A DNA stretch of 59,393 nucleotides from a plasmid, in sequence record NC_011409.1. The stretch is one strand, 5' to 3'. Below are positions 9,001-15,000 of this stretch, in pieces; the first letter of the stretch is position 1; each line of letters opens with the position of its first letter. The position numbers are program-made.

Positions 9001-12000
9001 TTCTTGTCATACCATCATTAAGACTACAGCTTATTTCTCCATCTTTAATATGAACATTCACATCTGCAAGTGGAACCGGAGAATCTATACTGTTAGCAAA
9101 TCCGTTTTCAGCATGATGAAACTTATAATCTTTTCTCCATGTTGACTCATCGCCCGCACATGTATTTTTATCTACCTCATACGGTGATCGCTGCCATAAA
9201 GGAAGAAACTTTTGAGCATCTACGATGACAATCATGTTCTCTTGATTAGCCATATTTTCAATATGCTGTGGATAACGCATATACACGACTTTTTGCTCTC
9301 TCGTTTTCATTCTAAAAATAATATATTTATCTCGACCTGAATATCTAAGCGTATCAACCATCACACCAATTGATGAAGGGGTCAGTTTTATCATGATTTA
9401 CTCCTCAATTTAAAAAGAATTCCTAATTGTGGTTTATCTTATTACATCGAAAATATCTCTCAAATATCAATGAGAGAAAACATCATGAAATTATTTTTAT
9501 GCGAAAAACCATCACAAGGTAATGATATTGCAAAAGTATTAGGCGCGACAAAGCGTGGTGAGGGTTGTTTATCAACACCTGACGGTCAGCTTACAGTTAC
9601 CTGGGGAATTGGTCATCTAGTAGAGCAATTTAATCCTGAAGAATATGATCCTGCCTTTAAAAAGTGGGCATTTGAGACCTTGCCAATTATCCCGGGTAAA
9701 TGGGGGCTTTCACCTAAAAAAGAAACAAAAAAACAGTTCAATGTCGTCATGAAACTTATCAAACAAGCTAAACTTGTTGTCATTGCAACCGATATTGATA
9801 GAGAGGGCGAAACTATAGCAAGAGAATTGCTGGATTTGGCAGGATTTCGAGGGCAAATAAAACGCCTTTGGTTGTCCGCACTAGATGATGCCAGTATTCG
9901 TAAAGCCTTGGGTGCGCTTAAAGATAATGAGGAAACACTACCTCTTTACTATGCGGGGCTTGCACGTAGTCGAGCTGATTGGCTTATTGGTATGAATTTC
10001 TCTCGTCTCTATACCTTATTAGCGCAACAACAAGGGTATCAAGGGAAACCTTTAAGTGTTGGTCGGGTACAAACTCCAACATTAAGCCTGGTTGTTAATC
10101 GTGACCGTGAGATAAAAAACTTCATTCCTAAGCAACATTTTGCTTTGCAAGTAATGCTTTCTGATGGAAATCAGCATTTTGCTACGCAATACGTTATTCC
10201 GGAGCAATATTGTGATCCTGATGGACTTTGTTTATCTGCCCAAGTTATACAAGCAGCAAATCAGCAAATTCGCCAATTGGGCCAAGCGAAAGTGGAATCA
10301 GTTGAAACTAAACGTGAAAGACAAAATGCCCCACTTTGCTTTGCATTAAGTGACTTACAATCAGAAGCCAACCGCCTTTATGGGCTGGGTGCGCAAAGAG
10401 TATTGGATATAGCTCAATCACTTTATGAGACTCACAAAGCGACAACCTATCCTAGAACAGATTGTGGTTATTTACCGGAGTCTCAGTTTGCAGAAGCTCC
10501 TCAAATTATCCAATGTTTGTTGCAATCCGATAATCGATTACAACCCCTTGCAGGTATGTTAAACCTTAATCAAAAATCACGAGTTTGGAATGATAAAAAA
10601 ATTACTGCTCACCATGGCATTATTCCGACTATGATTAAAGCTGATATTAGCAAAATGTCTGATGAAGAATTAAAGCTCTATGATCTCATACGTCGTCGTT
10701 ATTTAGCTCAATTCTTACCTGTTTCTGAAACAGATAAGACACAAATTATTTTGAAGTGCGGTCAACATATATTAAGTGCACGTGGGAATGTGCTTATTGC
10801 TCCAGGTTGGAAAATTCTATTTGGCAAATCACTTGATGAAGATGATGACGCACCTCAAGCCTTGCCGACGTTAAAGCAAGGACAAGTCTGTCAGATTTCT
10901 GATTCAGAAATAAAAACCTTACAAACATCACCACCTAATCACTTCACGGAAGGCACATTGCTCACCGCAATGAAAAATGCAGCTCGCTTTGTAACTGATG
11001 AGCGTTTAAAACAACGCTTACGAGAAACTGAAGGGCTTGGTACAGAAGCCACCCGGGCGGGAACGATTCAAGGTTTGATTGATAAAGGTTTCTTGAAAAA
11101 GAAAGGTAAATCACTATTAGCGACAGATGAAGCAATGACGCTAATTGATAATTTACCTCAGATGTTAAAAGATCCTGGTTTAACCGCACTTTGGGAGCAA
11201 GCGCTCAATCAAATTGCTGAAAGAACGCTTTCGCTAGAGGTGTTTATGCAAAAACAAGAAGTCTTTGTGCGGCATTTGATGGCTGATTGCCTTAAAAAGG
11301 GAATGAGTTTGGGGAATATTGAAATTCGTAAATGTCCTAAGTGCGGTGCACCAATGATTAAAAGAAATGGTAAAAATGGGGCTTTTTTTGGGTGTTCTGC
11401 TTATCCCAATTGCCAACATATTGAAAATTTTGATAGCAAAAAGAATACTAAGGGCGCGAAAAGTTCTAAGAAAACATCGAGTAAAAGTGTTAGTGAGCAA
11501 ATTTCATCTTTACGAAGCTTATTGAACTAGGATTTAAGCGCCTGTGAATGGCGAGTCCTCAAAAATAGTGCTATACTAAAGCCTTCGTAAGACCGTTCGT
11601 GAATTGTCGGTTATCAATTCACACTAGCCAAAAATGATTCCAGCACGCTGAAAGGAATTTCTCACATTGATTAACGCTCCTTGTGAGGTGTGCCACCTAG
11701 TTAATCAGAGTAATGATGGAGTAACGCCCCAATTTACTCTCGACTTTTCAAATCGCTGGCCATTGCGGATTTTTAAAGTGTATTGCAAAGTGCATTTTGA
11801 AAATTCGCAATGGCTTGCTACTTTCTCCTTACCGGAGCCCACCGGTGAAACAATGGGTGCCCTTTGTGTCAATTTGATGCCACAGATATAACCGATTAAT
11901 GGCCACAAGGTAATCGGATAAGGCGAGTCGTAAAAATCCGTATATGGTAACGAACGTATCAGTATTTTTATGAATCAAATTAGTTTGGCCTACTTAATTT

Positions 12001-15000
12001 TTATTTAATCAATCTATAGTCAAAACTATAAGGTCATTCAGGAAACTGGGTGACCTTTTCTTTTGGCTAAAATATCTCCAAATAGAATTTTTAATTTTTT
12101 ATACATTTAACGTTTGCTTTAGATTTTAATAACAACAGTTTTTAAGGTGCTGTGAAAACAGCCTTTAAGAAGTTGCACGATTCTTGAGAAGCAACGCCTT
12201 GCCTTAGCGCAAGTAGAATCATAGCCAAAATTTTTTCCAGCACACTGAAAGGAGAATCTACGAATAATTCGTAGGTGTGCCACCTTAAACTACCCTTAAC
12301 CTAAAATAAGATTACTTATTCTAGTTTAATCACAATTTAACCCTTGGCGGGAAACATTTTTCCCGTGTTGGGTAAGGATGTTTCTCCGCTTTTTTACTAC
12401 TTAGGAGAAACATTATGTCTACTCAAAACGCACAACCAAAATATTTCAATCTTCATACTTCTGGCATTGGTTATTTAAGCGATATTCGCGAAATCAAGCC
12501 GAAAAAAGGAGATGCATTTTGGGCTTGTCGAATTGCTGCTCTTACAGGTTCTTCCGATTCTCCGGAATATCGTTTTTTTGATATGAACGTATCCGGTGAA
12601 GAAACTGTAAATTTAATCAAACGCTGTCAAGAAGCTGTTGAAGCTAAGAAAAAAGTCTTAGTTTCCTTTGTAATGAGTGATTTGTGGTATGACACATTCA
12701 CTTATTCAAAAGACAGTGAATATCACAAAAAAGGTGATACTGGCGTGTCGATTAAAGGACGACTCTACCGTATTAACTTTATTAAAGTTGATGGTGAGTT
12801 GAAATATCAAGCAAAACGCCAAGATGAGCAAGGAAATGACTAACCTATAAACCGATGAAAGCCAACAACAAAATTTGTTGGCTTTTTCTTTACCCTGAAG
12901 GGGAAACTCCCCTTATGGGTGGTTTCTCCTTTTTTATTTCTATTTGAGGAGAAACCTATGAATACTTACGCTAAATTTTGCCCTAATGTTTTTGTTGCTA
13001 AATGTCCGGATGCTCACCAAAAAGGTGACATTATCATCTTAACCAGTAAATATGGTAAAGAGACTGAGGTAGAGATTCATAATCTCGTAAAAACATCTGA
13101 GGATGCGTATTTTTATTCCTTCACTCGTTGTGATGGTGTAAACAGTCAAGTTCGTGCAGAAAAAAAAGCTGAGCGTTATCAAAACGCGGCGAGTAATGCA
13201 TTAAAACGCAGTGAGCAATATTGTGAAGCTGCTAATGAAGGTCGTGAATTTCTTCGCTTGGGTGAACCGATTAAAATCGGTCATCATAGCGAAAAACGTC
13301 ATAGAGCCTTGATTGAACGTAATGCAAGACGCATGGATAAGTCTGTTGAAGAAATGCGTAAAGCAGAAAGTTATGACGGTAAAATCGCTTATTGGGAACA
13401 GATGGCAGGGAAAATTGATTTATCCATGCCGGAAAGTCTTGAGTTCTTTAAGTTTGAATTGGAAAAAGCCAAAGAAAAACACCAAGAGCTTAAAGATAAA
13501 CCTGAATTGCGAACACATGCTTTTTCTCTCACTTATGCTAAAAAAGCAGTCAATGAGCTTGAGAAAAAAGTAAAATTAGCCGAATTACTTTGGGCGTAAT
13601 GCAAGTCAGACTTTTTAAATAAAGTGGACTCTATTAAAACTATGTACCATTAAAGTGTGTGTTAATTTGACCGCACTTTCACCCATAGGGGATATATCCC
13701 TTATGGGCGATATTCCCTATTTTAGAAGGAATATCGAATGTTTAAATTAAACGAGCAACAACAAGCTATTTTAGAACAGGCACAGGTTATTTTAACTAAA
13801 GTGATGGAAGAAAAGCCCTTTTACCAAGGTGCACAGGAATTTACTGAGCCATCAATAGCTAAACTCTATTTTCAAACCATTATAGGGAATGAAGAAAGAG
13901 AAAATTTCGTGGTACTTTTCTTGGATAGAATGCACAGATTGATTAAATCTGAGGTGATGTTTCAAGGATCTGTTTCAGAAATTTCTGTGTCGATTCGGGA
14001 GATTATTCGACAGGCATTAAAGCTAAATGCATCAGCAATTATCATTGGGCACAATCATCCAACTGGAAATGTTGAGCCTAGTGATGCTGACAAATATATA
14101 ACCAAGAGATTAAAGGAAGCTTGTGAATTAATGGAAATTAAATTACTTGATCACTTTATCGTTTCTGGTTCTGCGTCTTTTTGCTTTACTGATAATCATC
14201 TTATGTAGCTAACAACCTTTCACCCATTGGGGGATAACACCCTCAATGGCAGTGTTATCCCCTTTACTTTTTACATTTTAAAAATTTAGGAGAAACACTT
14301 ATGTGTAAGGAAAATCGTATTTTAGAACTTGGAAAAATCTTCGTCTCTCGTCGTATCTTAGCGGAATTAACTACCGAAAAGATCAATGAGGTCATCTCGT
14401 GGCATCAAAATGGCTGCATTATCATGCTGGGGAATAAAGATTGGATTGAAAAACCGCCACATCCGCTTGCAGAAATTGTCATGAATTTCTATCAAGCAGA
14501 TAATGGTAAAGACACCATTCAACTCTCTACTTCAGTAGATGATGACGGGAATCGAACAACTAAGATTTCTTTTTCTGATGAAAGTGAAGATGAGCAAAGA
14601 GGACACTTTGATCTGATGAATCCCCTAATGATTTTTATCAAAATCATTAAGTTAAGGTGGATACACATCTTGTCATATGATCAAATGGTTTCGCCAAAAA
14701 TCAATAATCAGACAACAAAATGTGCGAACTCGATATTTTACACGACTCTCTTTACCAATTCTGCCCCGAATTACACTTAAAACGACTCAACAGCTTAACG
14801 TTGGCTTGCCACGCCTTACTTGACTGTAAAACTCTCACTCTTACCGAACTTGGCCGTAACCTGCCAACCAAAGCGAGAACAAAACATAACATCAAACGAA
14901 TCGACCGATTGTTAGGTAATCGTCACCTCCACAAAGAGCGACTCGCTGTATACCGTTGGCATGCTAGCTTTATCTGTTCGGGCAATACGATGCCCATTGT

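What the first reader, a model, noticed from the sequence alone, without database searches (positions are those of the whole stretch)
11597..12289. Three-copy conserved structured element with compensatory hairpin changes (candidate ncRNA or ssDNA promoter/ssi), two copies flanking topB
Copies at 11597-11699, 12147-12289 and 48553-48689 share conserved single-stranded blocks (atagccaaaa, tccagcaNNctgaaagga, gtgtgccacctta). The intervening hairpin differs by paired changes that preserve the stem (ctacgaa/ttcgtag, ctacg/cgtag, ctcaca/tgtgag). Copies B and C also share a ~60-nt long hairpin and an upstream gctgtgNaaacagc hairpin. Covariation argues for selection on structure, either RNA or single-stranded DNA. 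Each copy lies in a long noncoding gap at the head of a small-gene operon, next to ssb, topB, radC and ardC, which are typical early leading-region genes. Two models fit: an Frpo/ssi-like single-strand promoter or priming signal used on the transferred strand, or a cis-regulatory leader or sRNA. I cannot match it to a named RNA family.
Basis: seen in the sequence. Interest (0 to 1): 0.85.

Follow-up and report, generated by a model that had tools for sequence, protein, structure and literature searches.

The report
Pasteurellaceae relative of radC/STAXI leader RNAs
The three repeats are real, strongly covarying pseudoknotted RNA elements in a Haemophilus-type conjugative island; they are an unrecognised branch of two RNA motifs described in 2010 (radC RNA and STAXI) whose function is still unknown, and not a single-stranded-DNA promoter.

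Summary
Copies A (11599-11700), B (12149-12289) and C (48553-48689) are the only three in the window, all on the + strand. Homologues occur in 26 of 30 Pasteurellaceae ICE loci: 96% of cells paired, 24 of 27 nested pairs with compensatory changes.

Each unit is an H-type pseudoknot with an embedded hairpin. B and C are a 5' hairpin plus two units; A is a hairpin plus one unit. A and B do not flank topB: both lie downstream of it.

Rfam scores B and C as STAXI below threshold (18 bits against 40.5). A bona fide STAXI sits in the same slot (topB to STY4534/DUF3577 gene) in an E. coli ICE. radC RNA fills that slot in Pseudomonas and Burkholderia ICEs and has the same hairpin-plus-two-pseudoknot plan. 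A Pasteurellaceae model cross-hits 2 STAXI and 14 radC sites colinearly.

G.U outnumbers A.C 21:2 on the gene-sense strand, and no -35/-10 lies in the stems. This excludes an Frpo-type promoter.

Best reading: a cis-acting 5' leader RNA heading ICE DNA-processing operons, followed by a conserved Shine-Dalgarno-sequestering hairpin. The signal is unknown. New variant of a known kind.

The parts
11599..11700 (+). Copy A. 8-bp hairpin H1 (11599-11622, invariant loop TCGGTTAT), linker ACTAGCCAAAAATG, then one pseudoknot unit: PKa ATTCC 11637-11641, S2a GCACGC 11643-11648, TGAAA, PKb GGAAT 11654-11658, hairpin S3 11661-11687, S2b GTGTGC 11688-11693, tail CACCTAG.
   Evidence: coordinates. CM hits at 38-40 bits. 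Covariation in A-type homologues.
11706..12064 (+). Conserved structured non-coding stretch that copy A heads. Small hairpin 11706-11742, 24-bp hairpin 11758-11814, pseudoknot-like CCGG-A-GCCCA-CCGG-TGAAACAA-TGGGT 11832-11861, hairpin 11866-11880, hairpin 11892-11917, intrinsic terminator 12030-12064.
   Evidence: RNAalifold on 10 loci: 81 pairs, 51 with compensatory changes. Terminator scan. Terminator sequences differ completely between loci. No Rfam family.
12149..12289 (+). Copy B. P0 hairpin with GNRA loop (12149-12162). Unit 2: PKa GTTGC 12172-12176, S2a GATTCT 12179-12184, TGAGAA, PKb GCAAC 12191-12195, S3 12198-12213, S2b AGAATC 12215-12220. Linker ATAGCCAAAATTT. Unit 3: PKa TTTCC 12234-12238, S2a GCACAC 12240-12245, TGAAA, PKb GGAGA 12251-12255, S3 12258-12274, S2b GTGTGC 12275-12280. 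Tail CACCTTAAA.
   Evidence: STAXI 18.3 bits. CM 143-170 bits. Covariation.
12340..12417 (+). Leader hairpins between copy B and the DUF3577 start codon. Hairpin A 12340-12373 (ACCC..CGGGAAA/TTTCCCG..GGGT). Anti-SD ATGTTTCTCC 12378-12387 paired with the SD region GGAGAAACAT 12404-12413. ATG at 12415.
   Evidence: the same design with covarying sequence in Pasteurellaceae, Pseudomonas, Burkholderia and E. coli leaders. The SD lies in a 10-11 bp helix in the minimum-energy fold.
12415..12843 (+). First gene of the operon headed by B: STY4534-family / DUF3577 protein with a predicted OB fold. It is followed by DUF3560 (12919-13599) and RadC (13738-14208).
   Evidence: Pfam and NCBIfam. AlphaFold model with pLDDT 84 and weak Foldseek matches to SSB/PriB.
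48508..48537 (+). Weak sigma-70-like promoter candidate (TAGAGA-18-TATGAT). Its -10 ends 16 nt before the P0 hairpin of copy C, in a divergent intergenic region.
   Evidence: One site found against 1.9 expected by chance, so only suggestive.
48553..48689 (+). Copy C, same plan as B. P0 48553-48566. Unit 2: GTTGC 48575-48579, GATTCT 48582-48587, GCAAC 48594-48598, S3 48601-48616, AGAATC 48618-48623. Linker. Unit 3: TATCC 48637-48641, GCATTC 48643-48648, GGATA 48654-48658, S3 48661-48674, GAATGC 48675-48680. Tail CACCTTAAA.
   Evidence: STAXI 18.2 bits. CM 148-169 bits.
48696..48771 (+). Leader hairpins after copy C. Hairpin A 48696-48719. Anti-SD CATGTCATTTTTCC 48721-48734 paired with GGAGAATGACTATG 48758-48771 (SD plus start codon of a 118-aa ORF). 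ArdC follows at 49907-50890.
   Evidence: Pfam for ArdC.

Best explanation
A, B and C are RNA elements transcribed in the sense of the neighbouring genes. They are the Pasteurellaceae branch of one superfamily that also contains the Rfam motifs radC RNA (RF01754) and STAXI (RF01728).

Each consists of a 5' hairpin followed by one (A) or two (B, C) H-type pseudoknot units. The order within a unit is PKa, S2a, (C)UGARA, PKb, hairpin S3, S2b. Units are joined by a CCAA..UG linker.

B and C sit at the 5' end of operons for ICE DNA-processing or establishment genes (DUF3577-DUF3560-RadC; ORF118 ... ArdC). They most likely act in cis on their own transcript. The pseudoknot domain would be a recognition or sensor domain for a still unknown protein or ligand. 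Its output would be expression of the first cistron, whose Shine-Dalgarno sequence is locked in a conserved hairpin just downstream.

Shown by comparison:
- The structure.
- The strand on which it folds.
- The family relationship.
- The co-occurring SD-sequestering hairpin.

Inferred only:
- That the element is transcribed in this organism.
- That it controls translation rather than termination or mRNA stability.
- The identity of the signal.

Rough breakdown of confidence: member of the radC/STAXI superfamily 0.9; acts as RNA 0.8; cis-regulatory leader controlling the downstream cistron 0.5.
For: Structure:
- 96.1% of cells paired, 24 of 27 pairs compensatory, 0 of 500 shuffles as good.
- With pseudoknots included: 92.9% paired, and the unit-2 pseudoknot is 100% paired.
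- The unit-3 pseudoknot covaries: UAUCC/GGAUA, AUCGCU/AGCGAU, GUCAUC/GAUGAC, UGGCU/AGCCA, GCUCCC/GGGAGU, ACCCUU/GAGGGU.

Family:
- STAXI matches B and C over the full model length, on the right strand and with the right boundaries, at 18 bits.
- E. coli NGF1 carries an ICE with STAXI at 86.5 bits between topB and the STY4534 gene.
- 40 radC RNA hits in 20 Pseudomonas, Burkholderia and Xanthomonad loci lie in the same slots.
- The radC pseudoknots have the same topology and covary.
- The Pasteurellaceae model R2 hits the O157 STAXI at 31.9 bits (E 4e-5) plus 14 radC sites. In all, 16 of its 18 listed hits are known sites, all on the + strand and colinear.

Strand and RNA:
- G.U:A.C is 21:2 in the Pasteurellaceae alignment.
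- In the best-aligned radC helices it is 27:4, and 117:47 overall.
- GNRA loops GAAA, GCAA and GUAA occur in P0. UUCG loops occur in STAXI (PMC2864571).
- Real terminators precede B.
- STAXI was detected by RT-qPCR in E. coli vesicle preparations (PMC12370729).

Output domain:
- An SD-containing 10-11 bp helix follows the element in front of unrelated genes and across taxa, with covarying sequence.
Against: - There is no transcript data for this organism.
- No convincing sigma-70 promoter lies upstream of B. There is only a conserved ATTTAAT-containing motif.
- Copy A is not followed by an ORF, so 'leader of a protein gene' does not fit it.
- The SD-sequestering module also occurs without an element directly upstream, before internal cistrons in L008, L009, L012, L020 and L022. 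Its coupling to the pseudoknot domain is therefore co-occurrence, not demonstrated communication.
- RNAalifold on a mixed alignment of the leaders recovered only 4 pairs. In the per-sequence folds, SD pairing exceeded the shuffled controls only marginally in most leaders and not at all in four.
- Rfam gathering scores are not reached for either family.
- The alignments used for the pair counts were fitted to the model.
Confidence: 0.6

Rival explanations
1. Single-stranded DNA element used during conjugation or rolling-circle replication. It could be an Frpo-like ssDNA promoter on the transferred strand, or a priming signal or single-strand origin (ssi/sso).
For: The neighbourhood is typical of leading or replication regions: SSB, TopB, DUF3577 OB-fold protein, RadC, ArdC. 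Weinberg et al. raised ssDNA as a possibility for STAXI. ICEs of this family replicate from oriT with the relaxase (PMC6561031), so a single-strand origin must exist somewhere.
Against: - Frpo features are absent. There is no long hairpin rebuilding -35/-10/UP, and no promoter-like hexamers on either strand inside the elements (definition from PMC11541004).
- The helices are 5-6 bp and pseudoknotted.
- Wobble asymmetry puts the fold on the gene-sense strand, which is the wrong strand for a promoter driving these genes.
- The element is physically followed by an RNA-level SD-sequestering hairpin.
- A priming signal on the + strand is not excluded, because the polarity of the transferred strand is unknown.
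Confidence: 0.08
2. Independent or trans-acting non-coding RNA, such as an sRNA or a protein sponge, rather than a cis leader. This applies especially to copy A with its 330-nt structured extension.
For: A plus 11706-12064 has 81 predicted pairs, 51 of them compensatory. It ends in a strong terminator and contains no conserved ORF. The O157 STAXI stands in a decayed island with no gene directly downstream. Rfam types STAXI as an sRNA. The STAXI amplicon was detected by RT-qPCR in E. coli vesicle preparations.
Against: B, C, the E. coli NGF1 STAXI and all 24 element copies examined sit 67 to about 150 nt upstream of a start codon, in gene orientation. No terminator separates B or C from the ORF, unless the alternative seg1:seg3 hairpin acts as one. 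A could equally be a structured 3' UTR of topB.
Confidence: 0.15
3. Cis-acting RNA with a different output: processive antitermination (like put or EAR) or 5' protection of the mRNA, rather than control of translation initiation.
For: The element lies at the very 5' end of long multi-gene operons. In Pasteurellaceae the alternative pairing of seg1 (GCGGGAAACAT) with seg3 (ATGTTTCTCCGC) followed by T6-T9 looks like an intrinsic terminator. This module recurs inside operons. Copy A lies upstream of a strong terminator.
Against: The T-run is not conserved in Pseudomonas, Burkholderia or E. coli leaders, whereas SD pairing is. put and EAR RNAs have different architectures (my own knowledge, not tested).
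Confidence: 0.12
4. Double-stranded DNA operator or repeated protein-binding site for an ICE regulator (for example AcaB- or BisC-like), or a repeated mobile sequence.
For: Transfer-competence promoters of ICEclc share a DNA motif bound by BisC. An AcaB-family regulator is encoded at 6164-6919.
Against: What is conserved is complementarity, not sequence. There are 222 cells with changes on both sides, and G.U pairs are tolerated. That pattern has no meaning for a dsDNA site. There are no target-site duplications, and the position is fixed relative to genes across families.
Confidence: 0.03

Closest known systems
STAXI RNA motif (Rfam RF01728; Weinberg et al. 2010, PMC2864571)
   Same: - Same unit: PKa, 5-6 bp stem, (C)UGARA, PKb, hairpin, stem.
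- Same CCAA(N)UG linker before each unit.
- A 5' hairpin and tandem repetition.
- Same gene neighbourhood (Ssb, topoisomerase, antirestriction, integrase).
- Same locus in an E. coli ICE of the same family (topB to STY4534 gene).
- Reciprocal sub-threshold model hits.
   Different: - Two units (B, C) or one (A) instead of usually three.
- 18 bits against a gathering score of 40.5.
- No UUCG tetraloops in the inner hairpins.
- Found in Pasteurellaceae, not Enterobacterales.
- AT-rich.
radC RNA motif (Rfam RF01754; Weinberg et al. 2010)
   Same: - Same overall plan as B and C: 5' hairpin with GCUG..CAGC core, then two pseudoknot units of identical topology, then a pyrimidine-rich tail.
- Several copies per ICE.
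- Lies in 5' UTRs of DUF3577, radC, antirestriction and integrase genes.
- Same slots upstream of DUF3577 homologues.
- Followed by the same kind of SD-sequestering hairpin.
   Different: - No Rfam radC hit in the window even at E <= 10.
- The first radC unit has a 4-bp GAUC/GAUC helix where this element has GAUUCU/AGAAUC.
- radC lacks the UGAAA loop motif in its second unit.
- GC-rich hosts.
Frpo / ssi single-stranded DNA promoters of conjugative plasmids (Masai and Arai 1997; Samuel et al. 2024, PMC11541004)
   Same: Lies ahead of ssb- or antirestriction-type genes of a conjugative element. Structure-dependent and strand-specific.
   Different: Frpo is a long imperfect hairpin that rebuilds -35, -10 and UP elements on the template (transferred) strand. 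Here the helices are short and pseudoknotted, carry no promoter hexamers, and fold on the sense strand.
Leaders that hide the ribosome-binding site behind an upstream sensing pseudoknot (preQ1-II riboswitch; T4 gene 32 autoregulatory leader). Analogy from my own knowledge only.
   Same: An H-type pseudoknot, with an embedded hairpin in preQ1-II, lies upstream of a gene whose translation is structurally gated. In T4 the regulated gene encodes an ssDNA-binding OB-fold protein, as DUF3577 is predicted to be.
   Different: No sequence or detailed structural similarity was tested. Here the SD is not part of the pseudoknot itself. The units are repeated. The same element precedes unrelated genes.

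Membership tests
STAXI (RF01728) | Scores at or above Rfam's gathering threshold (40.5 bits) | tested here: not met
   B 18.3 bits (E 0.16) and C 18.2 bits (E 0.077), both over the full model 1-153. 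A gave no hit.
STAXI (RF01728) | [quoted passage not shown] | tested here: met
   B and C have two units whose stems covary; the unit-3 pseudoknot covaries well, while the unit-2 pseudoknot is 100% paired with one compensatory pair. A has only one unit, so A alone does not meet this.
STAXI (RF01728) | Unit anatomy and conserved loop and linker motifs (CCAAUG linker, CUGAGA/CUGAAA between stem and pseudoknot arm) | tested here: met
   The consensus from the cmscan alignments of true STAXI, compared with the window: CCAAAAUG linker, CUGAAA/UUGAGAA, same order of arms.
STAXI (RF01728) | Neighbourhood of Ssb, topoisomerase, antirestriction and integrase genes; same locus in related elements | tested here: met
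   TopB, SSB, ArdC and a XerC-like gene are in the window. In the E. coli NGF1 ICE a STAXI at 86.5 bits lies between topB and the STY4534 gene.
STAXI (RF01728) | Frequent UUCG tetraloops; Enterobacterales hosts | tested here: not met
   Inner hairpin loops are variable (GAAUAAU, CAAU, AUA...). The hosts are Pasteurellaceae.
radC RNA (RF01754) | Scores at or above Rfam's gathering threshold (40 bits) | tested here: not met
   No radC hit at E <= 10 in 11500-12450 or 48400-48800.
radC RNA (RF01754) | Architecture: 5' hairpin followed by two pseudoknotted domains | tested here: met
   The radC pseudoknots were derived and shown to covary in 38 distinct sequences. Model R2 aligns colinearly to 14 radC sites at E 0.007-7.5, all on the + strand. 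In all, 16 of its 18 listed hits are known radC or STAXI sites.
radC RNA (RF01754) | Located in 5' UTRs of genes acting on DNA (radC, integrase, methyltransferase, antirestriction) | tested here: met
   B precedes DUF3577-DUF3560-RadC. C precedes ORF118 and ArdC. radC RNA occupies the equivalent slot before DUF3577 homologues in 20 of 20 loci scanned. A does not precede an ORF.
Frpo/ssi ssDNA promoter | Long hairpin that reconstitutes -35, -10 (and UP) as duplex | tested here: not met
   No promoter-like hexamer pair on either strand inside A, B or C. The longest helix is 6-7 bp.
Frpo/ssi ssDNA promoter | Structure forms on the strand that is the template for the downstream genes | tested here: not met
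   G.U:A.C = 21:2 on the sense strand. The same bias is seen in radC RNAs. All model hits are on the sense strand.
Frpo/ssi ssDNA promoter | Sequence similarity to known Frpo/ssi; transcription or priming on ssDNA | not tested
   No reference Frpo/ssi sequences were at hand. Activity needs experiments. The polarity of the transferred strand in this ICE family was not found.
Riboswitch or protein-responsive leader (general class) | Conserved sensor domain coupled to an expression platform with mutually exclusive pairings | tested here: inconclusive
   An SD-sequestering hairpin and an SD-mimic segment follow the element. However, the module also occurs without the element. No ligand or protein is known.

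The most novel reading that the evidence does not exclude
radC RNA, STAXI and this Pasteurellaceae element may be one ancient riboregulator class of the SPI-7/ICEclc/ICEHin1056 family. Its tandem pseudoknot domain would sense a transfer-related signal. That signal could be an ICE-encoded nucleic-acid-binding protein, such as the OB-fold DUF3577/SSB-like protein, or a small molecule. Sensing would open the locked ribosome-binding sites of the DNA-processing and anti-restriction operons. This would be a new signal-to-RNA switch governing the establishment of conjugative islands.
Probability: 0.25. Interest if true: 0.8.

Novelty: new variant of a known kind. Interest (0 to 1): 0.5.

Why it matters
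radC RNA and STAXI have been orphan motifs since 2010. They are listed as separate Rfam families with no clan and no known function.

The Pasteurellaceae element shows that the two share one architecture. It also shows that they occupy the same slots in one widespread ICE family, which spreads antibiotic resistance (this window carries Tn10 and blaTEM) and virulence islands.

This yields a joint alignment with much more covariation. It gives a defined strand (RNA sense) and a concrete, conserved output element: an SD-sequestering hairpin with an SD mimic. The old question 'RNA or ssDNA, and what does it control?' therefore becomes directly testable with reporter fusions in Haemophilus, E. coli or Pseudomonas.

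It also means that current Rfam thresholds miss this family in Pasteurellaceae.

Tried and rejected
- BLAST of the region against PLSDB plasmids and of copy B against E. coli genomes found nothing.
- Single-sequence folding of either strand was not distinguishable from shuffles, so energy alone proves nothing.
- The Rfam gathering scan of the whole window found only two IS10 RNA-OUT copies.
- Scans for sigma-70 promoters and terminators inside the elements found none.
- MAFFT plus RNAalifold on a mixed set of downstream leaders recovered only a 4-bp helix. I fell back on per-sequence folds. Their shuffle control is weak, because a G-rich SD pairs easily.
- The unit-3 pseudoknot could not be counted cleanly on fixed columns, because its register shifts by one base between lineages (69% paired). 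A cis-versus-trans helix comparison gave a mean of 5.2 against 4.3 bp.
- A possible third pairing of the CCACCU tail with the loop AAGG (CCUU/AAGG, CCUC/GAGG, UCAUC/GAUGA) fits some lineages but not others. It was seen by eye only and is left open.
- A literature search for the polarity of the transferred strand in ICEclc-type elements gave no answer.
- A PDB sequence search for DUF3577 found nothing.
- No paper in the held library links radC RNA with STAXI.
- I rejected a coding explanation for 11667-11891 (74-aa TTG ORF). The region has non-triplet indels and covarying stems.

Full report
**What is there**

The window is part of an ICEHin1056/SPI-7/ICEclc-type integrative conjugative element of a Haemophilus parainfluenzae-like host.
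- Identical DUF3577 loci occur in H. parainfluenzae and other Pasteurellaceae.
- Gene order: ParA, DnaB, DUF2857, AcaB, SSB (7654-8076), TopB (9470-11530), STY4534/DUF3577 (12415-12843), DUF3560, RadC.
- A Tn10-like insertion follows, bounded by two IS10 RNA-OUT copies.
- Then come type IV secretion genes, ArdC (49907-50890), blaTEM, a MOBH TraI_2 relaxase (55497-57404) and a XerC-like recombinase.

The three copies are real:
- A is at 11599-11700, B at 12149-12289 and C at 48553-48689, all on the + strand.
- B and C are 90% identical over 100 nt.
- A covariance model scored at every window position finds only these three: 148, 143 and 40 bits, next best 13 bits.

**Anatomy**

Each unit reads PKa (5-6 nt), one or two bases, S2a (6 nt), (C)UGARA, PKb, hairpin S3, S2b. 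PKa pairs with PKb and S2a pairs with S2b. The result is an H-type pseudoknot with an embedded hairpin.
- B and C consist of a P0 hairpin (GCUGU-GNRA-ACAGC), unit 2, an AUAGCCAAAAUG linker, unit 3 and a GCCACCUUAAA tail.
- A has an 8-bp hairpin with an invariant loop, the same linker, and one unit.
Compare GCACAC/GUGUGC in B with GCAUUC/GAAUGC in C, and UUUCC/GGAGA with UAUCC/GGAUA.

**Comparative support**

- I fetched 79 loci around DUF3577 homologues.
- A model built from six close copies found 48 matches, all on the gene strand, in 26 of 30 Pasteurellaceae loci.
- There are typically two matches per locus. The proximal one ends 80-125 nt before the DUF3577 start where no extra small ORF intervenes. 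The distal one lies about 0.5 kb further upstream.
- On 35 distinct sequences, 96.1% of cells form standard pairs. Of 27 pairs, 24 show changes on both sides (222 cells). No shuffle out of 500 matches this. Sliding the partners drops pairing to 31-47%.
- The alignment is model-fitted, which inflates these numbers somewhat. The raw sequences show the same swaps.
- Pseudoknot arms covary in at least eight distinct forms. The unit-2 pseudoknot is 100% paired.
- Single-sequence energies are unremarkable.

**Identity**

- With relaxed thresholds, Rfam reports STAXI (RF01728) over exactly B and exactly C. The match covers the full model on the + strand, at 18 bits against a gathering score of 40.5.
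- Weinberg et al. described STAXI as a pseudoknot repeated two or three times near Ssb, topoisomerase, antirestriction and integrase genes. They left open whether it acts as RNA or ssDNA.
- Using the model consensus I located true STAXI in E. coli.
- In strain NGF1, STAXI (86.5 bits) lies in an ICE of the same family, between topB and the STY4534 gene. That is the slot of copy B.
- The full consensus shows the same unit order, the CCAAUG linker and the CUGAGA loop.
- In 20 Pseudomonas, Burkholderia, Xanthomonad and Thiothrix-type loci the same slots hold radC RNA (RF01754): 40 hits, all on the gene strand, two to four per locus.
- From 38 distinct radC sequences I derived its pseudoknots: GAUC/GAUC with GGGUU/AACCC and GAGUC/GACUC variants, and NNNCGC/GCGNNN. 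radC RNA is a hairpin plus two units of the same topology as B and C.
- A broader Pasteurellaceae model (R2, 19 sequences) was run without filters on 94 kb. It hit the O157 STAXI at 31.9 bits (E 4e-5), the NGF1 STAXI, and 14 radC sites. All were colinear and on the + strand.
- Sixteen of its 18 listed hits are known sites, although such sites cover about 2% of the sequence searched.
- I conclude that the three groups are one superfamily. The window element is a new, sub-threshold branch. It resembles radC in plan and STAXI in loop and linker motifs.
- I found no paper in the held library that links the two Rfam families.

**RNA or ssDNA**

- In the nested helices, G.U pairs outnumber A.C 21:2 on the gene-sense strand.
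- In a structure-blind MAFFT alignment of radC RNAs the ratio is 27:4 in the well-aligned helices and 117:47 overall.
- An Frpo-type promoter that drives these genes must fold on the template strand and rebuild -35/-10 hexamers in a long stem. Neither holds here.
- Real intrinsic terminators, with unrelated sequences in different loci, stand just upstream of B.
- C lies in a divergent intergenic region with a weak -10 whose end lies 16 nt upstream of P0.
- The NGF1 STAXI is preceded by a TTGACA box.
- STAXI has been detected by RT-qPCR in E. coli.
- A priming function of the + strand as DNA cannot be excluded, because I could not establish which strand is transferred.

**What lies downstream**

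- After B, after C, after the NGF1 STAXI and after radC RNAs in front of unrelated genes, the same design recurs.
  - Hairpin A comes first (seg1:seg2, for example ACCC..CGGGAAA/UUUCCCG..GGGU).
  - Then seg3 is perfectly complementary to the Shine-Dalgarno region and spacer (seg4).
  - Seg1 itself mimics seg4.
- The sequences covary. In window B and relatives the pair is AUGUUUCUCC/GGAGAAACAU. In Pseudomonas it is GUGUUUCUCC/GGAGAAACAC. In copy C it is GUCAUUUUUCC/GGAGAAUGAC. In third copies it is GAGAGG/CCUCUC.
- Minimum-energy folds put the SD in a 10-11 bp helix in most leaders.
- This argues for control at the RNA level. It suggests that the pseudoknot domain is the recognition part of a leader whose output is opening of the ribosome-binding site.
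- Two caveats apply. The module also precedes internal cistrons without an element, and a consensus fold of the mixed alignment failed. The coupling is therefore inferred.
- The first gene after B is predicted to be an OB-fold protein with weak SSB/PriB resemblance. This keeps an autoregulatory scheme conceivable.

**Copy A**

- A is different. It heads a 330-nt conserved non-coding stretch (11706-12064) with 81 predicted pairs, 51 of them compensatory, ending in a terminator.
- With A, this makes a structured RNA or topB 3' UTR of about 470 nt that matches no Rfam family.

**Verdict**

Its ssDNA-promoter reading is not supported. Its leader-RNA reading is the best fit.
- The element is not categorically new. 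It is a divergent variant of motifs known since 2010 whose function remains unknown.
- The new points are:
  - The unification of radC RNA and STAXI.
  - The extension to Pasteurellaceae.
  - The strand assignment.
  - The conserved SD-sequestering module.

Noticed in passing
window 11706-12064: About 330 nt of conserved, heavily covarying non-coding structure between copy A and an intrinsic terminator. It includes a 24-bp hairpin, a CCGG/GCCCA pseudoknot-like motif with UGAAA, and a CCGAUUA..UAAUCGG hairpin with a GGCCAC loop. Present in all Pasteurellaceae loci examined, with no Rfam family. It may be a large ncRNA or a topB 3' UTR.
   Followed up: partly
window 12340-12417 and 48696-48771; also L045, L056, L068, L081 and others just upstream of the start codons: A conserved leader module with three parts: a stable hairpin, an anti-SD segment pairing with the SD and spacer, and an SD-mimic in the first hairpin. 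It is found before DUF3577 and unrelated genes across Pasteurellaceae, Pseudomonas, Burkholderia and E. coli ICEs. It is duplicated before internal small ORFs in L008, L009, L012, L020 and L022.
   Followed up: partly
window 11599-11622: Hairpin H1 of copy A has a covarying stem (GUGAAUUG, GCAUAUUG, GCAUUG, GUAUUG) but a nearly invariant apical sequence UUGUCGGUUAUCAA across most Pasteurellaceae loci examined (it differs in L018). This suggests a specific binding partner or kissing interaction. It occurs once in the window.
   Followed up: partly
window 12090-12115 and the equivalent position in loci L008-L026: A conserved (T)ATTTAAT motif followed by a TAT(G/A)-like box lies about 35-55 nt upstream of the P0 hairpin of proximal copies. 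No canonical -35 is present. It may be an activator-dependent promoter.
   Followed up: no
window 14658-14727 (-) and 26523-26592 (+): Two inverted IS10 RNA-OUT copies (97-99 bits) bracket about 12 kb. This is a Tn10-like composite transposon inserted just after radC, possibly displacing whatever followed radC.
   Followed up: no
window 50985-51845 (-), 52028-52621 (-): A TEM-family beta-lactamase (668 bits against the blaTEM model) next to a serine recombinase or resolvase: a Tn3-type remnant between ArdC and the relaxase.
   Followed up: no
window 54344-54577; 5947-6142; 59033-59309: Arrays of direct repeats. There are about 13 copies of a 13-bp unit (TTAACTCTTATGA) upstream of the TraI_2 relaxase region, four 36-bp repeats inside or next to 5693-6187, and two 138-nt repeats at the window end. 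They could be iterons, oriT or att-related sequences.
   Followed up: no
window 12415-12843: The DUF3577 / STY4534 'ICE replication protein' is predicted (pLDDT 84) to be an OB fold with beta1-3, helix, beta4-5 topology. Its weak Foldseek matches are almost exclusively SSB, PriB and RPA-type ssDNA binders.
   Followed up: partly
L080 5564-5717 (E. coli O157:H7): An EFASI-like RNA just below threshold (48.9 against 51.2 bits) lies about 480 nt downstream of a strong STAXI, in a decayed island next to hok/sok. This is the known STAXI-EFASI association. Nothing EFASI-like was found in the window.
   Followed up: no
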